A DNA stretch of 50,290 nt from Catajapyx aquilonaris. Lineage: Eukaryota. The notes below the pieces were generated by a model. That model was given only the letters and a program-made list of their open reading frames with translations, did no database searches and had not been told where the DNA came from. Below, piece after piece: positions 4,271-33,607 of this stretch (position 1 is the first letter of the stretch; every line of letters begins with the position of its first letter). Position numbers and translations under genes: made by a program. Location of the stretch: the NCBI GenBank assembly GCA_000934665.2, contig JYFJ02002821.1, positions 1 through 50,290 on the forward strand, read 5' to 3'.

Positions 4271-4448
<178 letters not shown>

Positions 4449-6073: not shown

Positions 6074-7954
6074 ATGATACTGAAACTGCTTACAATCCTG
6101 GTTATTATGAATGGAGCGACTGGTTCCGAAATACTGTTCTTCTTCGGAATAGGCTCACTGAGTCATAAGCACGGAATGATGCCCCTCATAAAGGGCCTGA
6201 AAGAAAGAGGTCACAAAATCACAATTTTATCTCCCTTCAAGCCTTCCCAGCCTGACAATGACATTGTAGAAATAGTGCCCAAACTTCTAGATGAAATAAC
6301 TCAAGATGACCTGTCCTTGAACATGTTTGACAGTAGAATGGCGGGAAATATTTCAAATGTAGCAACAATTTTGCCACTATTTGGAATATGGGCATGCGAA
6401 GCCATCTTGTCCAGTCCGGAAACCAAATATTTTTTCCGCGACTCTGGCCCACGATTACACTTTGACCTCATCTTAGTAGATGGAATGATGAGTGACTGTG
6501 CCTTGGGCTTCGTCCACTATTTCAAGGCACCATTTATCGTGTTTTCCAACACCGGACTCTATACCTGGCTGCACTACTCAGTGGGGGATCCAAATCCAGG
6601 ATTCTGGGGCAGTTTCGACCCCATGTATCCTGTGATAGGCACAGATAATATGTGGAACCGACTAGTGAGCGGCTTAGTTCCGGTCTTTTGGGATTTGTCC
6701 AGGAGATACTACTTATTTCCGAGGCTAGAAAATATGTTAAAACCAGTAGTGGGCGAGGACCTCCCTCCACTAGTAGAACTGGATAGAAACGTTAGTTTAA
6801 TATTGACAAATTCCCACCCCAGCGTTGATATTCCAATTCCGTTGTTGCCAAATGTGGTGCAAGTCGGAGGGATGCATTGTAGAAACGCCAAGCCACTGCC
6901 AAAGGTGATGTACTGTACTTCACGATCAGTGTTGAACAAATGGCACATTAATTTATGACGCAACTTCCACGGACCAACAGGATATGGAGTCATTCGTCTC
7001 TGGTTCTGGTCAACACGGATTCATTGTTTTCAGTTTGGGCTCTGTGGTTCATTCTACCCATATGTCCCAAGCTCACCAGGAAGTGTTTCTTCGTGTTTTC
7101 TCCAAATTACCACAACGTGTGGTATGGAAGTGGGAAAATGACAAGATGGTTAATATTCCTCCAAATGTATTACTTTCAAAATGGTTACCTCAGGCAGACC
7201 TTTTGGGTTAGTTACAACGTACTTTCAACTTTTCATGAAAACAGCACTAATTACTTTTTGTACAGGTCATCCCAAAGCACGTCTGTTTATCTCTCACGGT
7301 GGAAACCTTGGGGTTATGGAATCCGTGTATAACGCCGTTCCTCTGCTCATTATGCCATTCTTTGCCGACCAAGACGGAAATGCTAGGTTGGCCGAAATTC
7401 ATGGGTATGGAATGAAGCTGGATGTAGTGGAACTCTCGGAGGAAAAACTGGATGCTTCACTCAGGCTCCTTCTTCAAGACAAACGGTAATTTTATAAAAA
7501 CCCTACCACACTTTTTATAATTATAGCCTAGTGATCTGATTTAGTGAATATCTGGAACCGGCTATACTTTAGCATTAGTGCATAAAATAAGCACTTTACA
7601 TCACCAGTGGGGGGGGGGGGNGGGGGGGTTGTCAAATCATCCCTTTTTACCAACTTATTTACACGTTGCAGATATGCCGAAAATGCTAAGATTCATTCTC
7701 GCTGGTTGAGAGACCAACCGGTACACCCTTTACAACAAGCCATCTTCTGGACAGAATATGTCCTTCGTCACAAAGGAGCGACTCCATTTGTTTCACACGT
7801 CCGAAATCAACCATTTTATCAGTTTTATCGCTTAGATGCTCTGTTTATAATTGTTGTATTGTTCTCGATGGTAGTTGTGGGGGTTTACTACACGTGTCGC
7901 TTAGTTTGCAAATCTTTTAGAGCCCAAAAACAATCCAAGGTGAAATCTTCTTAA
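6074..7954 (+). CDS. UDP-glycosyltransferase UGT-2 (~519 aa)
   Basis: Exons 6074-6904, 6981-7206, 7266-7485, 7672-7954 (1560 nt). Canonical GSLSH and FDLILVD, signature [27 protein letters not shown], TM helix, KVKSS tail. An acceptor at 6050-6051 implies a 5'UTR exon. Confidence 0.95.
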
Positions 7955-10248: not shown

Positions 10249-12207
10249 ATGATGATGCATATTTTGTCCGTGACGACGCTCTGCCTGTTTCTGGCCAATG
10301 TGAGATACTGTGACGGTGCTAAAATTTTGGTGTTCATGCCGTTGAGTACTAGGAGTGAAACAATGTATTTTTATCCGCTGAGTCGAGAGCTTGCAGAGAG
10401 GGGTCATGACGTGACTGTGTTGTCTTCTATGCACCCGACAAGTGACATGGGACGAGCAAAAGTCGTAGTTCCACCGGAAGTTCTCCAAGTCAGTGTGGAA
10501 AATGTGGGCAGTGACTTGGTTGAAGCTAGAATCTTAAGAGGTTCCACTGAATATTCAATGATGAAGGTATGTGTTAGCTATATTTTTTGTGTTGGAAACA
10601 ACTGAATGTCATAATAATTATGACATTCAGTTGTTACTTTCCCAAATTGACACTGGACAAATTATTTGTCCAGTGTCAATTTGGGAAAGTAATTTTGAAC
10701 AGCTAAACCAATGACAAAACTTTCCATGTAGTTGTGCGGACAAATGGTCGTTCCCGTCTGTGAAGCAGCCTTAGTCAAAAGCAACGTCGTCAGAGACATG
10801 GTCCGTTCTGGCCAGCGTGTGGATTTAATAATCATCAACGGTTCTCCCAACGACTGCGGCCTGGCTTTGGCACACATACTTAAGGCTCCATTTGTCTATG
10901 TCGAGAGTGCAGGTCTTTATCCCTGGCACACGTGGAATTCCGGAAATGCACTTCCTACCGCATACACGCCCAGTGTCATGTCACCATTTAGCCAAGAAAT
11001 GACTTTCAGGCAACGTGCTGAGAACACCTTGCGATTTGCCCTGTGGCACTATACACGACAAAAGTACGTACTCGAGCCACTGGAAAAGATGCTGAAAACA
11101 TCAGGTTACCTGAAAGATGATTCACCTTCTCTGGTTGAAATAGAGAAAAATGTGAGTTTAATCCTAGTACATCGTGATCCGAGCCTGGAATTTCCTACTC
11201 CTGTTCTATCCAACGTGGTCAAAACTGGTTGTGTGCATTGCCGATTGCCCAAAACACTGCCTCAGGTAATGCTGTACATATTTTACATTTATATTTTTAC
11301 ATTTCACTCGAATTTATAATTTCAAATGTTACGAAAATTAGGAATTGGAAGATTTTATCAGCGGTGCTGGCGACCATGGATTCATTTACTTCAGTCTGGG
11401 ATCCTTATCGACGTTGCAACAAAATCTCCAGTTTTTCAAAACCAATTTTCTGGACGTCTTTTCTGCCTTGCCTCAACGGGTTCTGGTCAAGTGGGACACA
11501 AATGCGACGAATGAGGACATTGGAGTGTCTGAAAATATAAAACTGTTGCAGTGGCTTCCTCAACAAGACGTTCTCGGTACAGTAATTTTGTTTATTCTAT
11601 CATTTTACGACTAAAATATTGACAACAAACTACTGACCATTCAGGGCACCCCAAATGTAAGCTCTTCGTAACCCACGGAGGTCTCTTCAGTACTACTGAA
11701 ACCGTGTATCATGGAGTTCCTACGGTAGTGTTTCCCATGTTCTGGGACCAAGACTACAACGCCGCACTCATGGAATACCTAGGGATTGGTATTAAATTGG
11801 AGATATCTCAAGCTTCTCCAGAAAGCTTGCGAGAAGCCATCAAAGAAGTCACCACCAATCCCAGGTATGTAGGTCGATACTAACAATGCTGTGAATAATT
11901 TTTGTAACTAATAAAATGTTCTTTCAGCTATCGCGAGAAAGTGAAGAATCGGTCAAGGGTACTTCGTGATCAACCTCAACATCCTCTTGCTCTGAACGTA
12001 TTTTGGATCGAATTTGTTCTCAGACACGGTGGACTACCGTATTTGAAGTCTGTTAGTCAAGATATGCCTTGGTATCAGACCAGTTTGTTTGATATATATC
12101 TCTTTCTATTGTCATCAGTAATAGCCATAATTTTCTTGGTAATGTTTAGCATTCGTGCTCTTAAAAAATTGTGCACTAAATCGCAACCCAAACAGAAGAC
12201 GAACTAA
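10249..12207 (+). CDS. UDP-glycosyltransferase UGT-3 (Glu/Asn-type, ~528 aa)
   Basis: Exons 10249-10566, 10732-11265, 11342-11576, 11645-11864, 11928-12207 (1587 nt). Signature [30 protein letters not shown], TM helix, KQKTN tail. PLSTRSE replaces the ..SH motif. Confidence 0.93.
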
Positions 12208-14558: not shown

Positions 14559-15231
14559 ATATGTACAAATTTTGAGCTTTATATATATAGGGATTTTATT
14601 CGTGTAACAATAACACATACCGTATCTTAACCTGAGGAAAATCTATTGAATAAAAATATTAATTAAAGTACCGGTACGCGTAATAATAATAATAATGAAA
14701 AATTGAGTTGGTCGGCGGAAATCGGCCTAACCTTTTACTTCTTGGATTTATTTCAGCCAATCTTCAAATGTTTTTCTCTCTATTTTTTCCTGTGGTTTGA
14801 AATGGTCATTATTTTGTGGATGCAATAAATTGTTTGGTCTAATATTGGAAGACGGATATCTTAGACAATAGTGAAAAGACCATTCAGCCTTGTTTGCGTG
14901 TTTTGTGCTGGACAAAAAAAGGAATACATGCCAATATTTGCATTCAACTTTCACAGATGGAATTTCAGGCGTTTTAGGTGAAAAACCTCTGTTTTGAAGA
15001 TATGTTTGGATACGGCCTTCTTCTTAGTTCTAATAAACAGAGATCAGCAGCAGTTCCCAACATAGAGCCTGGGCGTGATACCTTCAGAAAAACTTTAACA
15101 TCTTTACACTCTGTTATAAACTGGAAGGACAAGGTGCAGATTTGGTGATACAGTACCTACTGCCGACCACAAGAGGGGGCTTCATAGGCTACTTGTAAAG
15201 CGATAGACTGCTGAGATTAACAATGCACTTA

Positions 15232-15358
15232 TGCCTGGTTGCACCAACAAAATTACCGGTCCGATAGCTCCTAACAGACCGATAGCACATGTTAAAAGGT
15301 CTACCTATCTGTCCATTAGGAGCTATCGGACCGGTAATTTTGTTGGTGCAACCAGGCA
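15232..15358. mobile_element. PIF/Harbinger-like MITE
   Basis: ~44-bp perfect TIRs starting TGCCTGGTTGCACCAACAAAATTACCGGTCCGATAGCTCCTAA; TTA TSD at 15229-15231 and 15359-15361. Confidence 0.88.
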
Positions 15359-16715
15359 TTAGAGTAGCAAAAACTTTGTAGCTACCAAACAATACAGTCA
15401 TATAGAGTCTATAGGGTACTATAACACGAGCGATCCACCTATACTTGTTGCATCATAGCTGCTTCAATCAAAATAATCACCTCCCTGTGTGTGATAATTT
15501 CCCGCTGCTTGAAGGATGTACGGTTGATTTATCTGCTCAAGGATCCACGGTGCTATTACGAAATATATGGCTTCGTAAAAACAATTGCGTCCTTGAGCGC
15601 AAACTATCGTAGCCTACGTAAGATCACACTTTTTTTTTTTTTGGATCTGATGTACTGTAACTATATCAGCTGCACGTGTTGCACCAAAAATACGCACAAA
15701 TTTAGACTCGTGTTTTATTATCACTTAAAAATTCAGATATTTTATTTCGTACCCATAATTATTGTGGGTCACGGGGTCATTAATATATGCCGCAGTCCTA
15801 TCCATCAATTGCTTGATTTCAGTTACCGTCATCGACGCAGAGGCTCAACTGTCCTGTTACAGTTGCGAGAGTGGGATCAATTAAAATAGAAAACAGAGCA
15901 TATACTCGTAATATGACAAAAAGATAGAGCCGAAAAAATCTGCCTGAACGGTGGTATCCAATCTATGCGCCAAATAAAATAATGCCAGACTGTCATACTC
16001 AATGTGCAGTGTAGTACAAGAATTCCATTGCATAATACATGTATACACAATAAAATGTACGTCATTATGAGAGATAGTAATGATGCAGTAATTATACAAG
16101 AATGAGCTTGTATTTGCATAAACTATTGTGTGTATGCAGTCGGCTAACAATTATTTATGAAAGCACTCCACTTTTATAAAAATTCATGTGCGTGGAGAGT
16201 ATACAATATGGACATCCTCATGTTGAAGTCGTCACGCGATAATTTGCAATATTCTCAGGTAGTATGTGCAGTATGCTACATCCTTCAGCAGAACTAGGGG
16301 GGAAATCATCTGTTCCTCCTGAAAGCAGCAGGCTCAAAATTAAAGCATTAAAAATTCAGAAAATAAAAATGTAAAAGGATTGTAACCAAGATATTTTGCA
16401 GTCATAGTCCCTTAACTTCTGTAATTCAAGAGGGAAGAGAGAGCAATGGACCCAGCAACATTTCCCTTATGACCTTGCCCCACTATTAAATAAATACTTC
16501 CTGGCAGGGGTGGGGACCTCCTAAATGATAACAAGCTGCAATTATTATTAGCACGTCTACAATACTTAGTCAGAACCATTCGTTGCAGATATGGAAGTAG
16601 TTCGAACCAAATAGTTCAAATTTACTAGCCCATGAACTGGCAAAATGCCAATAGCCAATGTCACGGCCTTGGTAGATCAAGAGAGAACATCAGTCGGGAA
16701 ATAGCGACCGTTGTA

Positions 16716-19700
16716 ATGGAACGTACGATGTGGGTTGTGCTCTGCAAAGTTTGTATTTTGGCTGTACTGGTAGCTGGTGTCAATGGCGCACATATTTTTA
16801 TGTTTTGCGCCCTCACCACGAAGAGCGAGATGGTGGCATTGTACCCCTTTGTTGAAGCCCTGACGCAGAAAGGTCACGAAGTGACAATGCTGACACCCTA
16901 CCTACCCAAAAAGACTATCAAAGGATTGAACATCATCTCGCCTATTGAGCTTCAGCAGAATACAGCTGCAGATACTGCAGCTGATGTCCTCGTGGACAAA
17001 TTCAAAGGAGGACTGGACGAATGGTACATGATTTCAACCATACATAATTACGTGTATCCATTAACAGACCATGCAATGATCCGTTCAAACGAGGTAAGCA
17101 GTTATGTGTTAGTATACTGTCATGTTCAGTAGTAGCTAGTAATACAGTAAAACTCGATATAACGCTCCCGCATATAATGCTTTCCCGCTTTTAACGCCCT
17201 TTGGGCGGTCCCTTGAAGAGCGTTATATCGAGGTTTTACTGTAATTAATTACATTACAACAAGACCCATTAAGTTCCTTTTCTGTGTTACACCACCACCT
17301 GCTTCTTGTTAGATATTACGCCACTGCATTGATGAGTCCTAAGGGCCTCTTGAGTGCAGTGAAGTCACACAAGGGTGCGCTGGTGTTACATAGACTATAT
17401 CAGTTACTCCGAGTATCAAGTCGTGTACAGTGAGGGGTGCAGGATGCTCTTGAAATTGTTGTTAGTGGGTGCCTTGACCATGGCCTCTACCAGGGTCGCG
17501 GATTCAGCGAGCATCGTCATTTTCAGTCCATATACCACCAAGAGTGAGATGATGCTTTTCTTCCCGTTTTGCGAGGCACTGGTCAAAAGGGGTCACGAGG
17601 TCACCATGTTTTCGCCGATTGCAACTAAAAAACCGCCCAAAGGTGTCACATACTTTGCTCCAAAGGAGCTGACTGAAAACAATGATATTGAAGAATTTGG
17701 GAAACACGCTTTAGAATTGAAACGGAAAGAGTTCGATGCAGAATGGGAGATGCTATGGACAGTCCGATATCAGCTGGAGTCTCTTACAACCAAGCTCATG
17801 TTTCAAGCCAAAGAGGTGCTTTTATTCAACCACTATTCAACCACTATTCACACAAGCATGTAATGTGCATGTAACTGTGTTACGCAACCGTCCCCTGCAA
17901 TGACTCAACTCAGAAAGCAAAGAAAACGATTAAGAAATTGGATAGTAATCATGGGCGTAGCCAGGATTTAGGTTGGGGGGGGGGGGGGGCNTCAAGGTCA
18001 CAACCCTTCGTCGCGACCTCAAATGGTGCAAAACGAAAAAGAACCCATAGAACAGTGCAATTTTGCACTGTTCTACAGGGTTTTTGCGCGTTTCCCCCCG
18101 TTTTTCTGCACTTCCCTGAGATTTGGGGGGGGGGGGGCGGCTGCCCCCATGATAGTAATGTCGAATCTGAAACTAAAACTTACGCAGTGTAAAATTACCA
18201 ATGTTTTTGGCATCCTTTGTAAGACCACCATAAGCTTTTAATTATGTTCACCAATATTTTAATGTGCTACATGTGCTTTGATAGGCCCTATCTGATGCAC
18301 ATCGTGGCCTATTGTATAAAACATATTGAAATAGTATGCCTTTACAGTGAATGTCAACTGCATGTGTTTCATTATTAATTATTATTAATTTGTTTTTTAT
18401 GAAAGTCCCCGTAAGTTACTGTCATGTCACTCAGTGTCTACCGATAACTATAACACACTAAAAAGGCATTGCATAAAAACTGGATAGTGTATCAGTAGAG
18501 GGTTACCGACAACATTACAGTGAAGAGCACTGGTTTTTTTTTTCTTCTGAAAATAATACTCGAAGAAAATGTTGTATAGTGCACTCATATAGGCTACACA
18601 TTATTTTGTCCAACCTTGACATTGTTTGGAACTCCATTTTCCTACCGTGCGAATCAAAAGAACAGCACGTAGAAGCAAATAAATTGTAGAGAGTAACTTG
18701 CGTGAATCATCTCCGACATAGATATGAATTACTTTCGTAAATATATTATTATTTTATTTATATTCATTGAACTTCATAAAACTTTCCATTCCAGGTAAAA
18801 GACTTCATCAAATCCGGAAAGAAGGTGGATTTGATGATCATCAATGGAGCCATGAATGATCTAGGACTACCTTTGGTGCACCTCTTCAAGTGTCCCTTTA
18901 TGTATATATCAGGTTCTGGAATTTACCCCTGGATGCTCAGCAGCATTGGAGCCCCATTCTCCGCTGCATATTCTCCCAGTCTCCTTTCTGAGTTTGGAGA
19001 CAGAATGACCTTTTGGGAAAGAGCTTCCAACACCCTCAGGGTACTTGTTTGGCGTTACGTCAGGGAACAGATAATTATCCCAAAAATGGAAGAAATGCTG
19101 AAGCCGTTTTACATCAAGGAGGATACCCCTCCACTGATCGACATTGACAGGAATGTCAGCTTCATCCTCAGTTGCCGAGATCCTAGCTTAGATTATCCCA
19201 GATCATATCCTTCCAACGTCATTTCTATTGGTTGTATTCATTGCCAAGATCCAAAACCTCTACCTAAGGTAAGAAATCCTGCATTCAGATTCATACAATG
19301 TGTTACATTCTGATTAATTATGGTAATATTACTTGTATTACTGCTGATTATCGTTTTTCAGGATTTGGCTGATTATTTAGATGGCTCTGGAGACCATGGA
19401 TTCATCTACTTCAGCTTCGGCACAGTTGTAAAGTTACAAAAGAATGTCGAATTTATACAGAAAACGTTCTTCAAAGCATTTGCGCAACTACCACAACGCA
19501 TATTGGTTAAATGGGATGTAGCTGCCACCAACGAGGAAATTGGAGCTCCTCCTAATGTAAGACTGGGCGAATGGCTTCCGCAACAGGATATATTAGGTAG
19601 GCCATATACTTAAGCATTTGGTTAACATGTCATGTGCAGCCCTAGGGTTCCCATACGATAAGAATCTGCATATATCATAACTTACATAAGGCTGGAGTCG

Positions 19701-20759
19701 ACATAATTCAGTGACAACCTGTTTTCAAAGAAATCCAATGAAAGTTGTATTATTTTTGGTATTCCATATGTACGAGCATACACTATTTTTGTGTGCTGGT
19801 TGTCTTGATTAACGATGTAGTGTGTCTGTCATGTGTGATGCACAATTTTTTTTTCAGATATAAGTTATGGCGAAACAGTATGTGCTGTAGGCCTACTGTA
19901 TACTGCTCCAGCGCAAAGATTTCTCGATAGTGTTGTTTATACTTCTTACTTTTTCTCTTTTTAAGGTCATCCAAAAATTAAAGCCTTCATAACGCATGGC
20001 GGTCTCTTCAGTACGATGGAAACTGTGTATCATGGTGTTCCAGTCCTGTCGTTCCCCTTTTTCTGGGACCAAGACTACAATGCAGGTATTGCAGATCGAG
20101 CTGGATTTGGAATCAAAATGGATATTGTTACAGTGACCGCACCTCAAATACTTGACGCTTTACGAAGACTAACAACAGATCCCAGGTGAGAATATGACTA
20201 ATGCAAACCAGCATGCTAAAAAAATGCCTACAAAAGTATAGAAATCGAACTTTTTTCTTTGGGCTGCCAATTTCAGCCTATCAAAGATGAAAAATTATTT
20301 TCATATTCCGCACTTAGAGCTTTGCACATGTAGAGTAGGTCTACACTCCTCAATTGTAGGGCCGAATACTTTTGTCTAGCTTTTTCAATACTGGATTTTC
20401 AATGCAGTATAGAGATTTGTTGAAAAACAGGCAGTTTTACACCTATTATATGTTTTATTTTTGCTCCTTGCAGCTTCCAAGAAAATGCCAAATACAGATC
20501 CGGAGTTTTCCGGGATCAGCCTAGTCCTCCCATGGAAAGAGCCGTTTTTTGGACCGAATTTGCTATTAAACACAAAGGAGCAGCTCACCTAAGGCCCGTC
20601 TCCCGGGAACTTCCAACATATCAACTCTACCTTCTGGACGTCATATTTGTATTTGCCGCAGCCGCTTTTGTAGTTGTTGGTCTGTTATTCTTAATGTTTC
20701 GATCATTTTTCCGCATGGTGTTGTCCATATTTTTAAAGCCAAAAAGCAAAAAAGAGTAG
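16716..20759 (+). CDS. UGT-4 isoform a (alternative first exon 1a plus shared exons 2-5, ~530 aa)
   Basis: Exon 1a 16716-17093 (signal peptide, ALTTKSE, GHEVTML, donor GAG|GTAAGC, phase 0) joins in frame to 18795-19268, 19362-19596, 19966-20185, 20474-20759. Inr-like ATCAGTC at 16689. The splice to the shared exons is inferred. Confidence 0.75.
17145..17241. mobile_element. Tc1/pogo (Tigger)-like MITE
   Basis: TA|CAGTAAAACTCGATATAACGCT ... AGCGTTATATCGAGGTTTTACTG|TA. Confidence 0.85.
17444..20759 (+). CDS. UGT-4 isoform b (first exon 1b plus shared exons 2-5, ~528 aa)
   Basis: Exon 1b 17444-17815 (signal peptide, PYTTKSE, GHEVTMF, donor GAG|GTGCTT, phase 0), then 18795-19268, 19362-19596, 19966-20185, 20474-20759. 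UGT signature, TM helix, KSKKE tail. Inr-like ATCAGTT at 17399. Confidence 0.85.
17950..18151. mobile_element. hAT (Tip100-like) MITE
   Basis: CATGGGCG...GCCCCCATG termini, perfect 8-bp TSD ATAGTAAT (17942-17949 and 18152-18159), poly-G subterminal tracts. Confidence 0.85.
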
Positions 20760-22432
20760 GCGACTATTGCCAGCGCTATCAGTGCAGAGATAGTTTCGCA
20801 AATGTGGATAATTAGGTTTGGAAATTGTTAACTAGGTTTATTTTCTAATTAATATAAAATGCAATTATTGAACAAGAATGTGATTTTAGATTATGTTTCA
20901 AGTGGAAAGACGCAGAAAATTTACACAAGGTGTGTAGACAAAATAATTCCCCCTGGCGGTGTAACATACAACACACATAATCGAGTAACAGATATATCGT
21001 AAAAATGGTTAGATATAGGAAGGATTCTCTGTTGAGAGCATCCTATATTACCGCATTCCAAAAGTAGTATGCCTACTGCTTATCCCTAATATTTCGTAAA
21101 AATTAATTTGAACGAAATTCAACATAGCCACATGATGGAGCATATCTTCAAATATCACGGTTCAGATCATGGTCAGGACATTTCACCGAGTAACCTGCAC
21201 TTGTTTCTCATCTCCCAGAAAATCTTTAGCAGGTAAGATCCTAAGGAATGAACAAGAGACTATACAGTATACTGTATATAGTAATAGACTTGGCGTCGAA
21301 AGCGTTCGACATAGGCTTACACAATATGGTCAAACGGTTGGAAAAATGCTTCTATCATGCATGGTAGCTAAAGATATGCACCATCATATGACTATATGTT
21401 AATATTTGTAAAAATACTGTCAGTCGGTATTTACTTTTGTAGGCTAATAGTGCGGTAATACTTAAAAGAATGGTTCACTAATTTGGCAAGTTGTGTTCCA
21501 AAAATCATTTTAAAGCGCACTGATTCCATATATGCGGTCAGCTTTTTTTAAAATTGATGACGCACAAAGCGTGTCATAAATCCCTATCCAGTTCAGCAGA
21601 CAGTATTTACACCGTACTTTTACTGCTGCAATGAATATACAGTATAATTGAAATGCAAGCTATGCAGTTGAATAACTATAGAACGTGAAAGAAAGCTTTA
21701 TTTTTTTATAACAAGGAGAATTATTCTCCTCCATTACTGGCCCGTTCAGTTTACCACACAGTTCACTTACGGTATCTTGTGTCAATTTTAGATTATTTCC
21801 GTCCACATATTTGAACTTTTAGCTCACATCCTTTTCCGATAATACTTTGATAATACTAAATAGAAATGCAACCTCATACATGTGCCAGTGTTGACATGAC
21901 TATATATGATGCATGTAACAGTATTGTTTTACATGTAGAAAATGTTAGATCATTACCAGTACTGCAAATTTTATTACAGCTTTAAATTGCTATAATTTAT
22001 TATAGGCCTAAACAGGATACACAGTGGTGTTAATATTAATGCATCTAAAAGAAAGGTTTTTCGGGGAGGATATCAATGATGCAGAATGATACTCATATTG
22101 CGTGAGAGCTATTGTTAACAAATAACAGGGAGTCACTGCATAGCTGACCTTGGTGGAAAGACTATTGTGAATAGCATATAGAACTACTCGTACACTGATA
22201 CAAGGTATAGGTCCCGTATAGGTTCACGACGGGGTTAGGTTGTAGCAATTCAGGGTTGTAAACTGAAAAGTGCTGTTGTAAAACGACGTCTACCTGTAAC
22301 TAGCTATCTATAGGCCCTGCCACAATGCATCACGAAAAATAGAGGAAGTGCCTATTGTGTGTTTGAACTCAGAGGTGCACTTGCAGCGAGCTGCTAATAC
22401 TGCTATTTTTCCCCCCATAATATCAATTGTCA

Positions 22433-22778
22433 GGGAGGTGTAGATGGCCGAGATGGTAACGTCTCGGCTTGCTGAGTGAAATAAGGCCCCAGGTTCGATC
22501 CCCGCCTGGGGAGTTTTCCTTTCACCTGCGTCAGGAGGGTCGCTGACCTGCACCTTGGAGGTGTCTGGCAACCTAACCTCCGGGGGAACAGCACATGACC
22601 CCTTTTCAGACAATGCACTTGCATCTATGTTCCTTCCCCGAAAATCCCTACCCTTACCCAATATCCTTGATTCCTTTCACCGGTGAATAAAGAAAAGTAT
22701 AATATACAAAAAAAACTGATGGTGGTGTGCCAACCCCCTAAAAAGGCTCCGCCTTATTACGGGGTAACGTAAAAAAAA
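22433..22778 (+). mobile_element. tRNA-derived SINE (family S2)
   Basis: A box TGGCCGAGATGG, B box GGTTCGATCCC, A-tail, TSD CAATTG(T/C)CA at 22424-22432 and 22779-22787; homologous to 43346-43714. Confidence 0.85.
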
Positions 22779-23534: not shown

Positions 23535-25677
23535 ATGCTTACAGAAAGGGCTCCGTGGGTTTTTCTGCTGTTAGCAGTGCCTTGGGCTGTGGAATCCGCT
23601 CATATAGTAGTGATTTCTGCAATAACATCTAAAAGTGAAATGGTGGTCTTCTACCCGTATGCCGAGGCTCTTGCAGAGAAAGGTCATGACGTCACTATAA
23701 TTACGCCTTATCCACCTAAGAAGCCTCTCAGGTCAGGTGTGACTTCTATCCATCCAAAAGTACTAGTTGAGAGTGCATTTATGGATGATACCGGAAGAGA
23801 TCTCGTATATATGAAGCATAATAACATGATGAGTGACAAAGCCATGAGAGAGATGTTCGAGGAATCGGTCATAATGATCACAGACATGGTGATAAACCAG
23901 GACCAAGAGGTAAGGATGAGCATGCAGTAAATAATAATATGCCCCACATTAATTACATTCTCTTGGGCCCTTTATTTAGATCAAACAACTAGTGAATTCT
24001 GGTAAAAAGGTCGACCTGTTAGTCATAAATGGCGTCCTGAATGATTTTGCCTTGCCATTGGTGCACCTGTTCAAGTGCCCTTTCATATACCTGGAAACAC
24101 CCGGAGTCTACTCATGGCACCTTAGCACCATCGGAGCACCGCTGACAACTGCCTACGAACCTGGCGTGGACACCAAATTCGGGGATCGTATGAATTTCAT
24201 GGAAAGAGTTTTCAACACATATTCGGTGCTCAGTTGGCAAAACATGAGAGAAAATTCCGTCATTCCCAAGCTTGAAAAAATGTTAACACCTGAGTACATA
24301 AAGAAGGATACCCCTCCATTGCTAGAAATTGACAGAAATGTTAGTATAATTCTTGCAATTCGAGACATCTCCCTCGACTATCCCAGGTCACTCCCACCTC
24401 AAGTCAAAACCATAGGTTGCCTTCATTGCCAAGCAGCAAAGCCACTGCCCAAGGTAAGTGCGTAACGAAATGAAGCGTTGACTTTCAGAACCATCAGAGT
24501 AATATTTTGGTCGCAATTGAGATAGGCTCGTATTTTCAATGGTCAAGTCAGTTTCCTGCTAGAACAGTTACACTCGACCATAAAGAAACGTTTGATTAAA
24601 AAGATCCGATAAGGATTAATAGATTATGCAACTTCCTAAGTCTCAATTATCTCGAAATCACTAGATTGTAACTCTGATCGTTCTGATTATGGGGTCTTCC
24701 AAGTAGTTGCATGAAAAAATTATTAATGTCATATTAATCAGATGGTATGAATTTTATTACAACAGGATATAGCTGAGTTCGTTGAAGGATCGGGAAAACA
24801 TGGATTCATATATTTAAGTTTCGGAACCGTGGTTCCAATGGATGTCCAGAAGGACTTGATACGGAGGACTTTCTTCAAAGCAATCGCCCAGTTGCCACAA
24901 AGATTCCTGGTCAAGTGGGAAACAGAAGTCACAAACGAAGAAATAGGAGCTCCACCAAATGTTTTGATCAGGCAATGGTATCCACAACAGGATGTACTAG
25001 GTATGGTGACCTATCTGGGTATAATTACTTTCCAAGTGATATTTAAAACATGTATTTTTATATCGTAGGTCATCCGAAAATTAAAGCGTTTATAAGCCAT
25101 GGTGGTCTCTTCAGTACAATGGAAACTGTTTATCATGGCGTTCCTGTCCTTTCCTTCCCATTTTTGTTCGACCAAGATTTTAACGCAGCCCTGGCACAAA
25201 AACATGGATTTGGTATCATGGCTGATATTGTTACAATAACTTCTGATCAAATATTGGATGCACTTCGGAGACTCACAACGGATCCAAGGTATACACCTCT
25301 TCCAATTCTACTAATTGCTATTGCAGTACCATCTATCAAAAAACCTGATCATTGTCATCATAACAACTCACTACTGCAATTTTCATTACAGCTTCCAAAA
25401 GAACGCCAAGCACAGGGCCAACCTTCTTCGAGACCACCCAATCCCTCCTATGGAAAATGCTGTCTACTGGACAGAATTCGTGTTGAGACACGATGGTGCT
25501 GCCCATCTTCGACCTGTCTCAAGAGAACTCCCGTTTTACAAAAGTCACCTCCTGGACATTATGCTGGCAGCAGTAGTTGCAGCTCTAGTCGTTTTGGTGA
25601 TTTCATTTTTAATGTTGAAATGTCTGTTACGTGTATTGTGCTCCTTGTTTTCCGGATCCAAATCAAAGAAAGACTAA
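23535..25677 (+). CDS. UDP-glycosyltransferase UGT-5 (Glu/Asn-type, ~529 aa)
   Basis: Exons 23535-23909, 23980-24453, 24766-25000, 25069-25288, 25392-25677 (1590 nt). AITSKSE, signature [27 protein letters not shown], TM helix, KSKKD tail; AATAAA at 25710. Confidence 0.95.
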
Positions 25678-25979
25678 GAGTGTATGACTCCATGCGAATG
25701 TATGCCCTCAATAAAACCTAATCAATTCAGGGAAATCCATATTATGAATCAATATACTAGGCCAGGGGTTCCAGGGGTACGAGGTGCCCCGAGTGACTCG
25801 GGCAAAAAATGATAACATTCTTGGCTTATCTAACCTTCCTAGACTGTTGTGCAACATGAAGCTCAGAGCAAAAAAAAAATATTCATCCATTTGATGTCAC
25901 TTATTACCCACTCGCTGGCATCAGTCCAGTACAGTAGCCTACAAGTTCTCGCGCCTTACTGATGCTGAACGGCATCATA

Positions 25980-28145
25980 ATGACTGCCAGAGAAACACTC
26001 AGAATAGTCTTCCTAATTGGCCTCACTTCTATTGTGCATTCATCGGACATTTTAGTGGTTTGTGGTTTAACATCCAGAAGTGAAATGAGCGTCTTCTACC
26101 CTTACTCCGAGGCCTTGGCCGAACGAGGTCATCAGGTGACTCTCATCACTCCTTACACACCAAAGAAACCTCTCAGAGCTGGTGTGACTGTCATTGTACC
26201 AAAAGAATTAGCCGAGGAGGCTATTGGTGAAAATGCTGGCCCGGAGATGGTCGAAATGAAATTTACTCGTCCACTTGACGAATGGCTTATGCAAGATCTC
26301 ATGTTCGAATACGCCGAAAGTTTGGCTAACGCTCTCATGATAGAGGCCAAAGAGGTAAGATGCATTATTGTATCGAGGTCTATTATATTTTTAGAACTCA
26401 CTTTGTCCTCAAAAAAATCACATTATTTCTTACTTAATAAGATTACACTAACTTTTTCAGGTAAAGGTGTTAGTGAATTCGGGCAAAAAATTTGATTTGA
26501 TGATCATAAATGGTGCTCTAAATGACTTTGCTCTACCACTTGTGCACCTGTATAAGTGCCCTTTTATTTATGTGGACGGATCTGGTACGTACCCGTGGCA
26601 TCTCCCCAGCACTGGCTCACCACTATCGACGTCATATGCACCAAGTATCATCTCCGATTTTGGTGACACGATGAGTTTCTGGGAACGAGCCTCTAATACA
26701 TACCGAGTGCTCTCTTGGATATATTTAAAAGAAAAAGTCCTATATCCCAAACTGGAAAAAATGCTAAGACCCATTTATATCAAGAAGGACACGCCCCCAT
26801 TAATAGAGATTGACAAAAACGTCAGCCTAGTGCTGTCAGTTCGAGATCTTAGCCTTGAATATCCTCGGTCATACCCACCTAATGTCATTCACATTGGCTG
26901 TGTTCATTGTCGGGAGCCACAGCCAATGCCCAAGGTAATGTCTTCATTTATTTTACTCAGCATAGTATTTTTTTCGTGATATATCTGATAAGTTTCAATG
27001 GTTGTTATTGGTGAATGCATTATTTTGTAGGACTTGATGAATTATCTTGACGGGTCTGGAGAAGAGGGATTCGTTTACTTCAGTTTTGGGTCTGTCGTTA
27101 CAATGGATGTTAAAAAAGAGTTCATTAAGGAGACATTCTTTAAAGCAATCAGCCAATTGCCAAGAGTCAGATTTTTAGTCAAGTGGGAAACAGATGCCAC
27201 AAGGGAAGAAATTGGAGCTCCGCCAAATGTTAAATTGATGAAATGGTGTCCCCAGCAAGATGTGCTAGGTAGTCATATTATATTATATTATATTATATTA
27301 TATTATATTATATTATATTATATTATATTATTATAGTACCGGTATTATACGTAATATATTGATTATTATATACACGGTGTTTCTTTTACAAGTCGAGAAC
27401 CAGCTGCCAGTGGTGGCGGGATCTAAGACTATATACTGTATATAGTAAGAAACATCGCCTGTATAATAATACTGTACTTACATATTTTATATTAGCATTC
27501 TTGATTAATGGAAGTTTAAATTAGCTTTTACACACAAATCGCCAAAAACTAATAAATACTAATTATTTATGTTCCGCAGGCCATCCCAAAATAAAAGCTT
27601 TTATATCTCACAGTGGACTCTTGAGTACATTAGAAACAGTTTACCATGGAGTTCCCGTTTATGCATTTCCATTTTTCTTCGACCAAGAGTACAATGCTGG
27701 TATGGCAGAACAATATGGATATGGTATCAAGGGTGATTTAGTAACCATAACAGCTGAGAAGATTTTGGACGCACTCCATAGACTTCTTAAGGATCCCAGG
27801 TAGGCTACATAGTCACTTTTTTGAGAAAGTGTCCGGTTTATAATTTAGTAATTGGTTAATTTTAATTCCAGCTTTCATAAAAACGCCAAGCACCATTCCC
27901 GAATATTCCGCGACCATCCGCAGCCTCCTATGGAAACGGCCGTGTATTGGGCGGAATTCGTAATGAGACACAATGGTGCTCCTCACCTTCGGCCAGTCTC
28001 GAGATATCTTCCATTTTACAAGATATATCTTTTAGATATAGCCTTAGCAACTGGGATGATTTTTTCCCTCTCTTCGGCTCTATTATTCGTCATCTTGCGC
28101 CATGTTTTCCGTATGATGTTTGCATCCAAATCAAAGAGAGATTAG
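25980..28145 (+). CDS. UDP-glycosyltransferase UGT-6 (Glu/Asn-type, ~526 aa; alternative ATG at 25962)
   Basis: Exons 25980-26354, 26461-26934, 27031-27268, 27580-27799, 27872-28145 (1581 nt). GLTSRSE, WCPQQDVLGHPKIKAFISHSG..PFFFDQ, TM helix, KSKRD tail. Inr-like ATCAGTC at 25920. Confidence 0.95.
27276..27335. repeat. (TATTA)n pentanucleotide microsatellite in a UGT-6 intron
   Basis: Directly visible just after the donor at 27269. Confidence 0.95.
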
Positions 28146-30698: not shown

Positions 30699-33607
30699 AT
30701 GAGGCTTCCGGATCTCCTGGTGTCCACATTGCTGTCGTTCTTTTCCTCCTTCGTAGTCTCATACTTGTACGTGGTGCTGGACAAACCTTCCCTGGATCGC
30801 ACAAGCAACTTGCTTCCGGAGTACGACTTTATCGTGGGTAATAAATCTCAAATATACCATTTGGCTAGCAAAATCTTTGTCTTGTGAAATGTCCCCAAAC
30901 TGAAGTTCCAAGTTCCAACTTATCATTACTTCACCTTCACAGAATAATGTGGAATGAGGTTTCATTGTTTCGGAACTTTTTAACGTTACATTTTTATATA
31001 GCTCATTAGCCCATTAATAACATTTAACCTTTAACAAGACATACTTATAACAGTGTAATTCTCCCCAACTACTGTTGCTCGTTCAGTTGGTGCTGGTTCG
31101 GCAGGTGCAGTGGTTGCCACACGCTTATCGGAGGATCCATCCGCTACAGTGTTGCTGGTGGAAGATGGAGGAGATGACCCTGCAGAAGTGGCTGTTCCTT
31201 GGTTTCACATCTTTCTGTCTGGATCCGACCTGGATTGGCAACATGTGACTGAGCCTCAACGGGATGCCCTTTTGGCATATGAAGATCAGGTTCGTAAACA
31301 CTTTTACCATAAGTTGACTTTTTAAAAAATAATAACCCTGACTGGAATTAAATAAGGAATAATAAAGAGTACAAAATGAAAAGGCCACTTCCACATGTTG
31401 CAGGCCTATTAAAGTTCACATTTTATTACATGTAAAAATACAATTTTAGGGAAAAAATACCGGTGACTTCTTGTTCATGAAGCTTTTCTTTTCCATTGCC
31501 TCTAGTGTAATATTACAACAACCACATTGGTCAGAGAAGGTCTAATAAATTATGAGTCACAGCTTTTTTTATTGTCTCTCAGATAATTTTCCTATGCATT
31601 TGATTTTAGAGAAGTAGATGGCCTCAAGGAAGAGTGGTTGGAGGAACCAGTGCCATTAATTCCATGTTGTACATCAGAGGAAATAAATGCGATTTTGATT
31701 CTTGGGAGCAAGCAGGAAATCCTGGATGGTCATATGAAGAGCTTCTTCCACTTTTTAAAAAAGCAGAGATGCAGACCAACACATCTTTGGCTGCTGACAG
31801 TGAGCACCATGGTCATGACGGTCCCCTGACAGTGTCTGACAGAAGCTACTACTCACCTATTACCTATATTTTTATGGAAATATCCAAGAAACTGGGATAT
31901 CAAATTGGGGATCCCAATGCTGATATTCAAACAGGTTGACCGAATCCTATCAGTTTATGTATATGTGTGATTTATAATTACAGCCATCATTTCAGGCTTC
32001 TCCCGATACCAGGTGACTATCAAGGATGGACAAAGATGCTCCACTGGACGGTGTTATCTCCATCCAGTGTCAAGTCGATTGAACTTGCACGTGTCACTTA
32101 AAAGTCGAGTCCTCAAAGTTTTGGTCAAAAATGACACAGCAATAGGGGTCCTAATGATTAAAGGGGGCAAGGAAATTGAGATTAGTGCCCGTAAAGAAGT
32201 CATCTTGTCAGGTGGAACACTAGGTTCAGCCAAAATCCTTCTTCTCTCTGGCATAGGACCTGAGGACCATCTTCATGATATTGGGGTATATAGTCATTTA
32301 CTCTTGCATGTAGGAGTAACAATTTATGAGTATTTATATTACAGATTCCAATAGTGAAGAACCTTCCTGTAGGACTCAACCTGCAAGATCATGTGGCAGC
32401 ATATGGTCTTTCCTGGCTTGCAAATTCAGAATTGGTGTACAACCCTTTTATGCAGTCCACTGCAAACAGCATTCTAGAATATGCCAAGGGAAAGACAGGT
32501 GTCCTAGCAGCACCACATGGACTGGAGGCAACAGGTTTTTTGAATTCTGGAAAACACAATGACAGTTGCTTCAGTAGACATCCATGGCCTGACATTCAGT
32601 TGTCCTTCCTTTCACTAACCCTGGCAGTAGATGGAGGAGCAGTGTACAGGAGGTTCCTTGGTTTCAATGCTGCCGTATGTATTTAATGTAACTGTTAATA
32701 AATAATTTCAGTAACCCCATGAATCAACTTAGGTTTTTTTTAATTTTAGATATGGGATTCATACTTCAGTCCCATCCAATTCAAGAATGGTTTCTCAATA
32801 ATTCCTATTCTGTTACGTCCTAATTCAAGAGGTTATGTACAGTTGCGATCATTTGACCCTTTTGACACTTTAATAATACAACCTAACTACCTTGAAGAGA
32901 GAAGTGATGTCGAGACGCTCATTGAAGGTCAGATCATCCATGAACCTGTCACTTTTATTAGTGAAACCACATGCTACTACTATTATTAAAGGGTTAAATC
33001 TCACTTTCTTGCACTAAGGGCCAGTTGCATAAATGAGGTAATAGATGAAGAACAAGTGGTTGATCGGATAGATCCCAATCTCCCAACTGTTAAAAATGAT
33101 GACTGCAATATTGCATATAAATGGCTGTTACATTTGTTTAAACGAATTTCATATTTGACTTCTACATTTCAGGCATAAAATTGGCATTACAGATGGGAAA
33201 TGATGACCTTTTAAAAAAAGGAGGAGCAATGTTTCATGACTTACCTCTGGCAACATGCTCTCAGTATGAGGTGTTTTCTGACTCATACTGGGAATGTTAC
33301 ATTCGACACATGGCCCAGACTGACCATCACCCAGCAGGAACTTGCAAAATGGGACCAAGTACAGATGCAACAGCAGTGGTAGACAATGCTCTCAGGTACA
33401 TATTACTTGTAAATATAGTTTTCCATAAGCCAAATCATTACGGTACTAATCATTGCACACATTTTCAGAGTGCATGGAATCAGAAGCCTGCGAGTGGCTG
33501 ATGCATCGATCATGCCAAATCTGGTTTCAGGAAACCCAAACGCTGCAGTAATTATGATAGGGGAAAAGGCATCCCAACTCATCAAGAACTATTGGTCAAT
33601 GAAATAA
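30699..33607 (+). CDS. GMC oxidoreductase (glucose dehydrogenase [FAD]-like, ~608 aa)
   Basis: Exons 30699-30837, 31087-31289, 31610-31934, 31996-32285, 32345-32674, 32750-32927, 33173-33395, 33469-33607 (1827 nt). Motifs [58 protein letters not shown] and [15 protein letters not shown] (catalytic His/Asn intact); N-terminal hydrophobic segment. Confidence 0.95.

What the first reader, a model, noticed from the sequence alone, without database searches (positions are those of the whole stretch)
16689..20759. UGT1A-like exon sharing: two alternative first exons feed one UGT body
Seen: two complete, diverged first exons (16716-17093 and 17444-17815) each have an Inr-like ATCAGT, an ATG, a signal peptide, the KSE motif and a phase-0 donor at the homologous codon. 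Only one set of exons 2-5 follows. Exon 1b has no good polypyrimidine acceptor, and splicing 1a into its nearest AG (17441-17442) shifts frame, so the exons look mutually exclusive. Established: vertebrate UGT1A diversifies aglycone specificity through variable first exons spliced to constant exons. Inference: this is an independent invertebrate version, with the variable part covering only the first ~125 aa of the acceptor-binding domain.
Basis: partly seen in the sequence, partly recalled or inferred. Interest (0 to 1): 0.8.

Follow-up and report, generated by a model that had tools for sequence, protein, structure and literature searches.

The report
Two first exons, one UGT body
One gene in a tandem cluster of sugar-transferring detoxification enzymes has two intact, long-conserved starting exons ahead of a single shared body, much like human UGT1A or UGT2A1/2A2, but it is not yet shown that both starts are used.

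Summary
The anatomy is real. The window holds six tandem UGT genes and seven N-terminal coding pieces. The extra piece belongs to the gene at 16716-20759.

**What holds up**
- Exon 1a (16716-17093) and exon 1b (17444-17815) each join in frame to exons 2-5, giving 530 and 528 aa.
- They are only 35% identical, about as far apart as the first exons of neighbouring paralogues.
- Synonymous sites are saturated, while non-synonymous change is held down equally in both. Neither evolves faster than the other.
- Both have coding-like composition and a TCAGT initiator motif, as do the other three genes of this subfamily.
- No remnant of a second body was found.
- One public run with spliced contigs confirms junctions 2-3, 3-4 and 4-5, and covers the 5' part of 1a. 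Its body contig starts three letters before exon 2, and the first of these does not match the intron.

**What is missing**
- Neither the 1a>2 nor the 1b>2 junction was seen.
- The 1b donor is the weakest of 11 donors scored.
- No relatives or genome were available for comparison.

**Verdict:** alternative promoter/first-exon use is the best reading, at about 0.5. It is a new variant of a known kind, of moderate interest.

**Side finding:** this subfamily has Glu where GT1 enzymes carry the catalytic His.

The parts
16689..16694 (+). Inr-like ATCAGT upstream of exon 1a. The putative +1 A is at 16692, 24 nt before the ATG.
   Evidence: TCAGT lies within 100 nt upstream of the ATG in 5 of 5 genes or exons of the split-N-domain subfamily (C, 1a, 1b, E, F) and in 0 of 2 of the others (A, B). 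The window-wide rate is 79 per 50290 nt on the + strand. A contig of run X1 begins at 16703.
16716..17093 (+). Exon 1a coding part: 126 codons with ATG, hydrophobic leader, TTKSEM and donor GAG|gtaagc.
   Evidence: The donor matches the consensus at 7/9 positions, with duplex dG -9.6. A contig of X1 covers 16703-16957 with 0 differing letters.
17094..17443 (+). Spacer between 1a and 1b. It would be intron for 1a transcripts and promoter for 1b. It holds a palindromic MITE-like repeat at 17140-17262 and a cryptic out-of-frame acceptor AG at 17311-17312.
   Evidence: (inverted repeat I2: 19-nt arms, 95% complementary). One search shows loose ends of several contigs at 17200-17244, so this is a repeat family. 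There is no UGT body remnant here.
17399..17404 (+). Inr-like ATCAGT upstream of exon 1b. TCAGT starts 44 nt before the ATG, the same distance as in gene E (-44) and close to gene F (-41).
17444..17815 (+). Exon 1b coding part: 124 codons with ATG, hydrophobic leader, TTKSEM and weak donor GAG|gtgctt.
   Evidence: The donor matches the consensus at 5/9 positions with dG -5.4, the weakest of the 11 scored. GC3 is 0.556, which is coding-like.
17816..18794 (+). Intron between 1b and exon 2, 979 nt. The homologous introns of C, E and F are 165, 70 and 106 nt. It holds G-run-flanked hairpin repeats and a single N at 17991.
   Evidence: I1, D4. In one search, all three Ns of the window follow a G homopolymer of 12 or more bases, so they are base-call ambiguities and not scaffold gaps.
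18795..19268 (+). Constant exon 2, 158 codons. This is the second half of the acceptor-binding domain.
   Evidence: Pfam UDPGT PF00201 profile positions 124-263, E = 1.4e-10. Contig of X1.
19362..19596 (+). Constant exon 3.
   Evidence: Pfam UDPGT profile positions 265-336. The junction 19268>19362 is joined in a contig of X1 with GT..AG ends.
19966..20185 (+). Constant exon 4, which carries the UDP-sugar signature region.
   Evidence: Pfam UDPGT profile positions 338-409, E = 2.4e-16. The junction 19596>19966 is joined in a contig.
20474..20759 (+). Constant exon 5 coding part: transmembrane segment, C-terminal KSKKE and stop.
   Evidence: Pfam UDPGT profile positions 412-492, E = 5.5e-19. 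The junction 20185>20474 is joined in a contig.

Best explanation
The gene at 16689-20759 is a UDP-glycosyltransferase gene with two alternative promoter/first-exon units feeding one set of constant exons 2-5.

**Proposed mechanism**
- Transcription from the initiator near 16692 yields exon 1a. Its strong donor is joined to the first good in-frame acceptor, at 18795. Exon 1b has no usable acceptor of its own, so it is removed as part of a 1701-nt intron.
- Transcription from the initiator near 17402 yields exon 1b, which is joined to the same acceptor across a 979-nt intron.

**Products**
- The result is two ER-membrane enzymes of 530 and 528 aa. They share the second half of the acceptor domain, the whole sugar-donor domain and the membrane anchor.
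- They differ (35% identity) in the signal peptide and in the first ~100 mature residues. These include the loop that carries the catalytic base (here Glu) and the first helices lining the acceptor pocket.

**What is shown and what is inferred**
- Shown: the anatomy, the equal long-term constraint on both exons, the splicing of exons 2-5, and the presence of 1a in RNA-derived contigs.
- Inferred: both exon 1>2 junctions, the activity of the 1b promoter, and any difference in substrate range.
For: - **Open reading frames.** Both spliced models are open from ATG to one terminal stop.
- **Age of the duplication.** 1a and 1b are 35% identical. That equals 1a-E1 (35%), 1a-F1 (34%), 1b-E1 (32%) and 1b-F1 (37%), whereas exon 2 of D, E and F is 61-66% identical. 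The duplication is therefore about as old as the gene split.
- **Constraint.** Synonymous differences are saturated (pS 0.73-0.83 overall). pN is 0.43 for 1a-1b and 0.42-0.44 for 1a or 1b against E1 or F1. In the core, pN is 0.29 for 1a-1b.
- **Equal rates.** Unique changes in 1a against 1b are 14 vs 16 (outgroup E1), 18 vs 15 (F1) and 13 vs 9 (C1), all with chi2 below 1.
- **Family-conserved columns.** Agreement is 20 of 33 for 1a and 20 of 32 for 1b, against 22 of 30 (E1) and 22 of 31 (F1).
- **Composition.** GC3 is 0.51 and 0.56, like the other coding exons (0.44-0.50). Introns have GC 0.29-0.39.
- **Open frames by chance.** Shuffles stay open in 11 and 13 of 20000.
- **Initiator motif.** TCAGT lies upstream of the ATG in 5 of 5 members of this subfamily. 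For 1b it starts at -44, as in E (-44), and F is at -41. The background rate is 0.16 per 100 nt.
- **True first exons.** No pyrimidine-tract acceptor precedes either ATG. Genes A and B do have one.
- **No second body** was found. The single N in the intron is a homopolymer ambiguity.
- **RNA-derived contigs.** Contigs of run X1 join 19268>19362, 19596>19966 and 20185>20474 with GT..AG ends. One contig covers 16703-16957 of 1a with no differing letter.
- **Weak hint of a fork.** The body contig's second letter lies on 18793, so it starts 3 letters before exon 2, and its first letter does not match the intron. The letters GAG are shared by the ends of 1a and 1b, which differ at the fourth letter back (C against A). 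A fork in the assembly graph between two spliced forms would end a contig exactly there (inference).
Against: - No read or contig was seen to join either first exon to exon 2.
- The 1b donor GAG|gtgctt is the weakest of the 11 donors scored: 5/9 consensus matches and dG -5.4, against -6.8 to -11.7 for the others.
- The presumed 1b promoter is only 350 nt long and is interrupted by a MITE-like palindrome.
- The 1b intron is 6 to 14 times longer than its homologues.
- A well-formed cryptic acceptor at 17311-17312 could divert 1a transcripts into a frame-shifted product.
- Only one small run (32 million letters, kind not on record) was available. Contigs cannot show transcript starts.
- No related species, no whole genome and no annotation could be consulted. 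Conservation of the arrangement is therefore untested.
- The contig-start argument could also arise from a coverage drop or from a heterozygous site at that position.
Confidence: 0.5

Rival explanations
1. Exon replacement. The gene now uses only exon 1a, and exon 1b is a recently silenced relic that is always removed with the intron.
For: - The 1b donor is the weakest of the 11 scored and differs from the GTAAG of 1a, E1 and F1 at three positions.
- A MITE-like insertion lies in the 350-nt spacer that would have to serve as the 1b promoter.
- The intron after 1b has expanded to 979 nt.
- 1a is the first exon that contigs of X1 cover.
Against: - 1b has an intact 124-codon frame (13 of 20000 shuffles stay open). 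It has coding-like GC3 of 0.556, the same non-synonymous constraint as 1a and no rate acceleration.
- It keeps a TCAGT at the family-typical distance.
- Three donor substitutions alongside an untouched reading frame fit a working non-consensus donor better than long decay. Only very recent silencing would fit the data.
Confidence: 0.23
2. Orphan upstream exon. 1a is the surviving first exon and promoter of a neighbouring UGT gene whose body was deleted. It is transcribed, but its transcripts are unproductive (spliced to the cryptic acceptor at 17313, or unspliced). The functional enzyme uses 1b only.
For: - A pyrimidine-rich cryptic acceptor at 17311-17312 gives a stop at residue 135.
- 1a is no closer to 1b than to E1 or F1, as expected if it once headed a separate gene.
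- The tree of first exons is unresolved (one search gives no junction).
Against: - 1a has the strongest type of donor, GAG|gtaagc.
- Its frame is intact and it is under the same constraint as 1b.
- The body contig of X1 starts with letters that fit an exon ending in GAG.
- No trace of a deleted body remains.
- Even under this origin, the default splice of 1a to exon 2 would give a full-length enzyme.
Confidence: 0.1
3. Assembly artefact. Two paralogous genes or two haplotypes were collapsed, or a gene body is missing between the first exons, so the one-body picture is false.
For: - The locus is a tandem array of paralogues with repeats in the introns.
- There is an N at 17991.
- No genomic reads could be laid.
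Against: - The 1a-1b spacer has no N.
- The N at 17991, like the other two in the window, directly follows a G homopolymer of 12 or more bases, so it is not a scaffold gap.
- 1a and 1b are 35% identical, far too diverged to be haplotypes or to be collapsed.
- Exons 2-5 are collinear with a spliced contig that has no differing letter.
Confidence: 0.06
4. Tandem inclusion. 1a and 1b are both kept in one mRNA through an in-frame AG (17412 or 17433), giving a protein with a duplicated N-terminal segment.
For: 2 of the 27 AGs between the 1a donor and the 1b ATG keep the frame open.
Against: - Neither AG has a pyrimidine tract.
- The product would carry an internal signal peptide and a duplicated half-domain.
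- 1b keeps its own ATG, leader and TCAGT.
Confidence: 0.02

Closest known systems
Vertebrate UGT1 (UGT1A) locus: tandem variable first exons, each with its own promoter, spliced to common exons 2-5. Sources: passages read in PMC9209448 and PMC2819257; search listing and abstract only for PMC1885805 and PMC3325998.
   Same: - Homologous first exons lie in tandem. Each has its own ATG and leader, and apparently its own core promoter.
- None has an acceptor.
- One constant set of exons encodes the sugar-donor domain and the membrane anchor.
- The first exon is the fast-evolving part: 32-41% identity against 61-66% for exon 2.
   Different: [quoted passage not shown]
- The variable exon covers ~125 residues and ends near UDPGT profile position 124. 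It does not cover the whole acceptor domain, so half of that domain is constant.
- The catalytic-base position is Glu, not His.
- Splicing of either first exon to exon 2 is not yet shown.
- Orthology to UGT1 was not tested and is not expected.
Human UGT2A1/UGT2A2: two alternative first exons sharing the downstream exons. The pair is recalled from memory. PMC9209448 (passage read) says only that UGT2 enzymes include products of alternative first or second exon use.
   Same: Exactly two first exons ahead of one shared body, inside a cluster of otherwise independent paralogues. This is the closest match in scale.
   Different: - As for UGT1A, the vertebrate first exon encodes the whole acceptor domain.
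- The two exons here are much more diverged (35%).
Zebrafish Ugt1 and Ugt2 clusters, with variable and constant regions confirmed by cDNA cloning (PMC2819257, passages read).
   Same: Variable/constant organisation within the UGT family, with relic and pseudogene variable exons occurring alongside working ones.
   Different: - That organisation is shown there by cloned cDNAs. Here it is inferred.
- In the same paper, Ugt5 genes share 5' non-coding exons, which is a different kind of sharing.
Clustered protocadherins and other genes with multiple variable first exons. This is a mechanistic analogue recalled from memory and named in the abstract of PMC1885805.
   Same: Promoter choice decides which first exon is cap-proximal. 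That exon's donor is joined to the first constant acceptor, and downstream first exons are removed as intron.
   Different: It is an unrelated protein family with far larger arrays.

Membership tests
UDP-glycosyltransferase, GT1 family (Pfam UDPGT PF00201) | Significant match to the family profile. | tested here: met
   Exons 2, 3, 4 and 5 match PF00201 at profile positions 124-263, 265-336, 338-409 and 412-492, with E from 1.4e-10 to 5.5e-19. All scores are above the curated cut-off of 19.5 bits.
UDP-glycosyltransferase, GT1 family (Pfam UDPGT PF00201) | N-terminal acceptor-domain start (first strand, catalytic-base loop, first helix) encoded by the first exons. | tested here: inconclusive
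   Neither 1a nor 1b alone matches any Pfam family at E <= 0.01. A profile of the seven N-terminal pieces matches the GT1 glycosyltransferase 2yjn_A at residues 23-92 with E = 0.0056. Both exons align with the single-exon N domains of paralogues A and B.
UDP-glycosyltransferase, GT1 family (Pfam UDPGT PF00201) | Catalytic His after the conserved Ser near the N-terminus, with an Asp partner. | tested here: not met
   1a, 1b, C, E and F have Ser-Glu. A and B have Ser-His. The Glu column aligns with the His of SKSH in 2yjn_A. At the column where B has Asp (VDG), the other five genes have Asn (ING). That this His and Asp form the catalytic dyad is established knowledge of GT1 enzymes; PMC2819257 (passage read) calls them essential.
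UDP-glycosyltransferase, GT1 family (Pfam UDPGT PF00201) | Animal ER-type topology: signal peptide, C-terminal transmembrane segment and dilysine tail. | tested here: met
   Read by eye from the translations. There are hydrophobic leaders in 1a and 1b, a hydrophobic stretch near the C-terminus, and the ending KSKKE. No predictor was run.
UGT1A-type variable-first-exon / constant-exon gene | Two or more tandem homologous first exons, each with its own start codon and leader. | tested here: met
UGT1A-type variable-first-exon / constant-exon gene | [quoted passage not shown] | tested here: met
   Six bodies against seven N-terminal pieces. No remnant scores better than E = 0.6 in the four flanking and intervening stretches. 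This holds within this assembly only.
UGT1A-type variable-first-exon / constant-exon gene | Each first exon has its own promoter. | tested here: inconclusive
   TCAGT lies upstream of both exons at family-typical distances. A contig begins at 16703, 11 nt after the 1a motif, but contigs cannot show transcript starts. Nothing bears on the activity of the 1b promoter.
UGT1A-type variable-first-exon / constant-exon gene | Each first exon is spliced to the first constant exon in mature mRNA. | tested here: inconclusive
   Neither junction was seen. The body contig starts 3 letters before exon 2 with a first letter that does not match the intron. That fits either first exon.
UGT1A-type variable-first-exon / constant-exon gene | Downstream first exons lack a 3' splice site, so they are mutually exclusive. 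| tested here: met
   No pyrimidine tract precedes the AGs next to the 1b ATG. 25 of the 27 upstream AGs give a stop. Caveat: the cryptic acceptor at 17311-17312 is well formed but out of frame.
UGT1A-type variable-first-exon / constant-exon gene | The variable exon encodes the whole acceptor-binding domain. | tested here: not met
   The first exons end at about profile position 124 of 499. Exon 2, which is constant, covers positions 124-263.

The most novel reading that the evidence does not exclude
A non-vertebrate UGT cluster has independently arrived at the UGT1A/UGT2A1-2 solution in its minimal form. Two promoter/first-exon units have been held under selection for as long as the neighbouring paralogues have existed. 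They swap only the catalytic-base loop and the first ~100 mature residues of the acceptor pocket onto a constant half-domain. This occurs in a subfamily that has replaced the canonical His-Asp dyad by Glu and Asn.
Probability: 0.45. Interest if true: 0.5.

Novelty: new variant of a known kind. Interest (0 to 1): 0.37.

Why it matters
- **Convergent evolution.** If both first exons are used, exon sharing in UGTs is not a vertebrate peculiarity. It would be a solution that arises repeatedly in tandem detoxification-gene clusters.
- **An early stage of the architecture.** The locus would be a two-exon stage from which larger variable arrays could grow.
- **A natural domain swap.** The two isoforms share everything after residue ~125. 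Any difference in acceptor range would therefore map to the catalytic-base loop and the first helices.
- **An untested catalytic variant.** The Glu-for-His change in five of the seven N-terminal pieces points to a catalytic variant of animal UGTs that has not been assayed. It is cheap to test.
- **Literature.** Six full-text searches found no report of UGT first-exon sharing outside vertebrates. Passages read in a Drosophila family survey (PMC8010143) describe only two minor splice variants. Subscription papers, such as the 2012 insect UGT comparison (not held), could not be checked.

Tried and rejected
- **Sequencing runs.** No RNA holder was listed by the look-up of sequencing runs. One run (X1, kind not on record) held 0.33 of the words.
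- **Parts without contig cover.** In X1, exon 1b (17387-17820) and the 3' part of exon 1a (about 16958-17093) had no contig cover. This is a blank in one small run of contigs and counts neither for nor against.
- **Contig depths.** The depths of the 1a and body contigs were not used to rank the parts, as the tool advises.
- **Whole genome.** None is held.
- **The search for homologous proteins.** Exon 1a (longer proteins) and exon 2 (longer proteins) each returned no hit at E <= 0.001. The third search was not used.
- **The search of protein representatives with 1b.** It returned 25 hits with E <= 0.001. The best real ones have 27-41% identity. One (P0003) is a low-complexity repeat. No near relative and no isoform pair were found.
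- **Metagenome scan with the exon-2 alignment.** It found 2 loci at 33-34% identity. L001 is a distant UGT tandem with single-exon N domains and gives no help on this arrangement.
- **Earlier findings of this scan.** Nothing was found by place, sequence or words.
- **Tree of the seven N-terminal pieces.** All four inner branches are unsupported. It cannot tell whether 1a and 1b are sisters, or whether one came from a lost gene.
- **dS.** It could not be estimated because synonymous sites are saturated.
- **DNA similarity of flanks.** 1a and 1b share only a 75-nt core patch at 68% identity.
- **Promoter motifs.** Among the five upstream regions, no shared motif other than the TCAGT core was found in three or more.
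- **Rfam.** No match at gathering thresholds in 15000-22000.
- **Poly(A) signals.** No AATAAA or ATTAAA in 20760-22600.
- **Literature on the catalytic His.** One search gave nothing usable. My recollection that human UGT1A4 and UGT2B10 lack the His is unverified.

Full report
**Setting.** The window is eukaryotic DNA with spliceosomal introns. No whole genome is held for it, and no call named the organism. Six-frame ORFs and tblastn with the two gene models show a tandem cluster of six UDP-glycosyltransferase genes:
- A, on the minus strand, about 3264 down to 1478.
- B, 6074-7954.
- C, 10249-12207.
- D, the finding.
- E, 23535-25677.
- F, 25962-28145.

A GMC-oxidoreductase gene follows at 31059-33501. 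A gene with a weak PX-domain match and long open frames lies on the minus strand at 40875-47555.

A and B encode the N-terminal domain in one exon. Each has a pyrimidine tract plus AG just before the ATG, so a non-coding exon probably lies upstream. C, D, E and F split the N domain into a first exon of 106-131 codons and a second of 158-178 codons.

**The observation.** It holds at the stated coordinates.
- Exon 1a (16716-17093) and exon 1b (17444-17815) translate without stops to 126 and 124 residues.
- The exact body exons are 18795-19268, 19362-19596, 19966-20185 and 20474-20759.
- Either first exon joined to the body gives one open frame, of 530 or 528 residues.
- Both first exons end in GAG|gt at the same alignment column as E1 and F1.
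- There are seven N-terminal pieces for six bodies.
- A permissive tblastn (word size 2, E up to 50) found nothing better than E = 0.6 for body sequence upstream of 1a, between 1a and 1b, in the 1b-exon 2 intron, or downstream of the gene.
- Exons 2-5 match Pfam UDPGT over profile positions 124-492. The first exons alone match no Pfam family at E <= 0.01. A profile of the seven N-terminal pieces finds the GT1 enzyme 2yjn_A at E = 0.0056.

- The AG at 17441 does shift the frame. But 2 of the 27 AGs between the 1a donor and the 1b ATG (17412 and 17433) keep it open, though neither has a pyrimidine tract.
- A well-formed acceptor exists at 17311-17312. It would give a stop at residue 135.

**Are both exons alive?** 1a and 1b are 35% identical. 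That is the same distance as either has to E1 or F1 (32-37%), while exon 2 of D, E and F is 61-66% identical. The duplication is therefore as old as the genes themselves, and the first exon is the fast-evolving part of the family. Several measures show that both exons are still constrained:
- Synonymous differences are saturated (pS 0.73-0.83). Non-synonymous differences are 0.43 for 1a-1b and 0.42-0.44 for each against E1 and F1. In the conserved core the 1a-1b value is 0.29.
- Relative-rate counts show no acceleration in either exon: 14 vs 16, 18 vs 15 and 13 vs 9 unique changes with three outgroups.
- Both agree with family-majority residues equally often, 20 of 33 and 20 of 32.
- Both have coding-like composition, with GC3 of 0.51 and 0.56. 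Introns have GC 0.29-0.39.
- Shuffled versions stay open in only 11 and 13 of 20000 trials.

An exon left unused since the duplication would not look like this. An exon silenced recently cannot be excluded.

**Promoter and splice signals.**
- TCAGT lies within 100 nt upstream of the ATG in all five of C (-97), 1a (-26), 1b (-44), E (-44) and F (-41), and in neither A nor B.
- The motif occurs 79 times on the + strand of the 50290-nt window. That gives about a 0.14 chance per 100-nt stretch, by my arithmetic.
- No other shared upstream motif was found.
- Donor strength differs. 1a has GAG|gtaagc (7/9 consensus matches, dG -9.6). 1b has GAG|gtgctt (5/9, dG -5.4), the weakest of the 11 donors scored. 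It differs from the GTAAG of 1a, E1 and F1 at three positions.
- The 350-nt spacer that would serve as the 1b promoter holds a 123-nt palindromic MITE-like repeat.
- The intron after 1b is 979 nt, against 165, 70 and 106 nt in C, E and F. It contains G-run-flanked hairpin repeats.
- The single N at 17991, like the two others in the window, directly follows a G homopolymer of 12 or more bases. It is not a scaffold gap.

**RNA evidence.** One public run (X1, 32 million letters, kept as contigs, kind not on record) held a third of the sampled words. When laid on 15000-21500, it gave the following:
- One 1124-letter contig joins 19268>19362, 19596>19966 and 20185>20474 with GT..AG ends and no differing letter. 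The run is therefore RNA-derived, and the body model is right.
- A 255-letter contig covers 16703-16957, the start of exon 1a, beginning 11 nt after the initiator-like A.
- The second letter of the body contig lies on 18793. The contig thus starts three letters before exon 2, and its first letter does not match the intron.

Both first exons end in GAG and differ at the fourth letter back. A fork between 1a-spliced and 1b-spliced RNA would end a graph contig at exactly this point. A coverage drop or a heterozygous site could do the same. I count this only as a weak hint. No contig joined either first exon to exon 2. Parts without cover are listed under Tried and rejected, as the tool prescribes.

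**Mechanism proposed.** This is promoter choice with default splicing.
- A transcript starting at ~16692 carries the strong 1a donor. That donor pairs with the first competent in-frame acceptor, at 18795. Exon 1b has no acceptor, so it is removed with the intron.
- A transcript starting at ~17402 carries only the 1b donor.

The two enzymes would share residues from ~125 onward. They would differ in the leader, the first strand, the loop with the catalytic-base position and the first helices. This is the region that aligns with residues 23-92 of 2yjn_A. The cap-proximal-donor logic is established for UGT1A and the clustered protocadherins (recalled). Its operation here is inferred.

**Origin.** There are two routes: duplication of a ~730-nt promoter-plus-exon unit, or loss of the body of an upstream paralogue. 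The tree of first exons is a star with no supported branch. No flank similarity survives. The order of events is therefore open.

**Comparison with what is known.** The closest systems are:
- vertebrate UGT1 (passages in PMC9209448 and PMC2819257; abstracts of PMC1885805 and PMC3325998);
- the human UGT2A1/2A2 pair (recalled), which is closest in scale.

The differences here are:
- there are only two first exons;
- the variable exon covers about 125 residues, not the whole acceptor domain;
- Glu sits at the catalytic-base position;
- use of the junctions is unproven.

Six full-text searches found no report of first-exon sharing in a non-vertebrate UGT. Passages read in the Drosophila family survey PMC8010143 describe only an internal alternative start and a 9-nt donor shift. 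The editorial PMC8450408 contains none of the searched words. The 2012 comparative insect paper is not held, so prior description there cannot be excluded.

**What could not be done.** No relatives were reachable.
- Two word-index protein searches were blank.
- The HMMER search of 1.84 billion representatives with 1b gave 25 hits, the best real ones at 27-41% identity.
- The metagenome scan gave only a distant UGT tandem.

Conservation of the two-exon arrangement is therefore untested.

**Verdict.** I put about 0.5 on true alternative first-exon use, 0.23 on 1b being a recently silenced relic, 0.1 on 1a being an unproductive orphan, and under 0.1 on assembly error. It is a new variant of a known kind, of moderate interest. 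Junction reads would settle it.

Noticed in passing
16827-16829 (1a), 17546-17548 (1b); the same column in C, E and F; compare A and B: Five of the seven N-terminal pieces (C, 1a, 1b, E, F) have Ser-Glu where A and B have Ser-His. That column aligns with the His of SKSH in the GT1 enzyme 2yjn_A. At the column where B has Asp (VDG), the other five genes, including A, have Asn (ING). Of the 24 UGT-like hits to 1b, read by eye, 19 have His, 5 have Gln, Met, Val or Ile, and none has Glu.
   Followed up: partly
17140-17262: A palindromic MITE-like element lies in the 1a-1b spacer, with 19-nt arms that are 95% complementary. Several contigs of run X1 match it and then run on into unrelated sequence, so it belongs to a dispersed repeat family that is also found in RNA-derived contigs.
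   Followed up: partly
7621, 17991, 42144: All three Ns of the window sit directly after a G homopolymer of 12 or more bases. They look like base-call ambiguities at homopolymers.
   Followed up: yes
10566/10732 (gene C) against 17093, 17815, 23909, 26354: The first intron of gene C lies about 19-20 codons upstream of the shared position in D, E and F. C's first exon is 106 codons and its second is 178. This is either intron sliding or an independent intron.
   Followed up: no
20662-21500 and beyond: An 1800-letter contig of X1, with a different depth figure, abuts the body contig inside exon 5 with a 4-letter overlap at 20662-20665. It runs unspliced past 21500. No AATAAA or ATTAAA occurs in 20760-22600. 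It could be a long 3' UTR or a separate or antisense transcript.
   Followed up: no
22308-22676 (-) and 43410-43730 (+): Two ORFs share a near-identical peptide stretch (…HSASRDVTISAIYTS…), as seen in the ORF list. They match no Pfam family. They are probably copies of one repeat family.
   Followed up: no
31059-33501 (+): A multi-exon GMC oxidoreductase gene, with GMC_oxred_N and GMC_oxred_C matches, lies next to the UGT cluster.
   Followed up: partly
4087-4576: A long trinucleotide repeat reads as poly-Asn/poly-His, poly-Ile or poly-Asp/poly-Tyr, depending on frame and strand.
   Followed up: no
protein P0012 (library hit, unnamed source): This is a 545-residue predicted protein made of two near-identical UGT N-terminal domains in tandem, with no C-terminal domain between them. 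Each domain ends in the same read-through letters. It may reflect tandem N-domain exons in another organism. Its genomic context could not be fetched.
   Followed up: no
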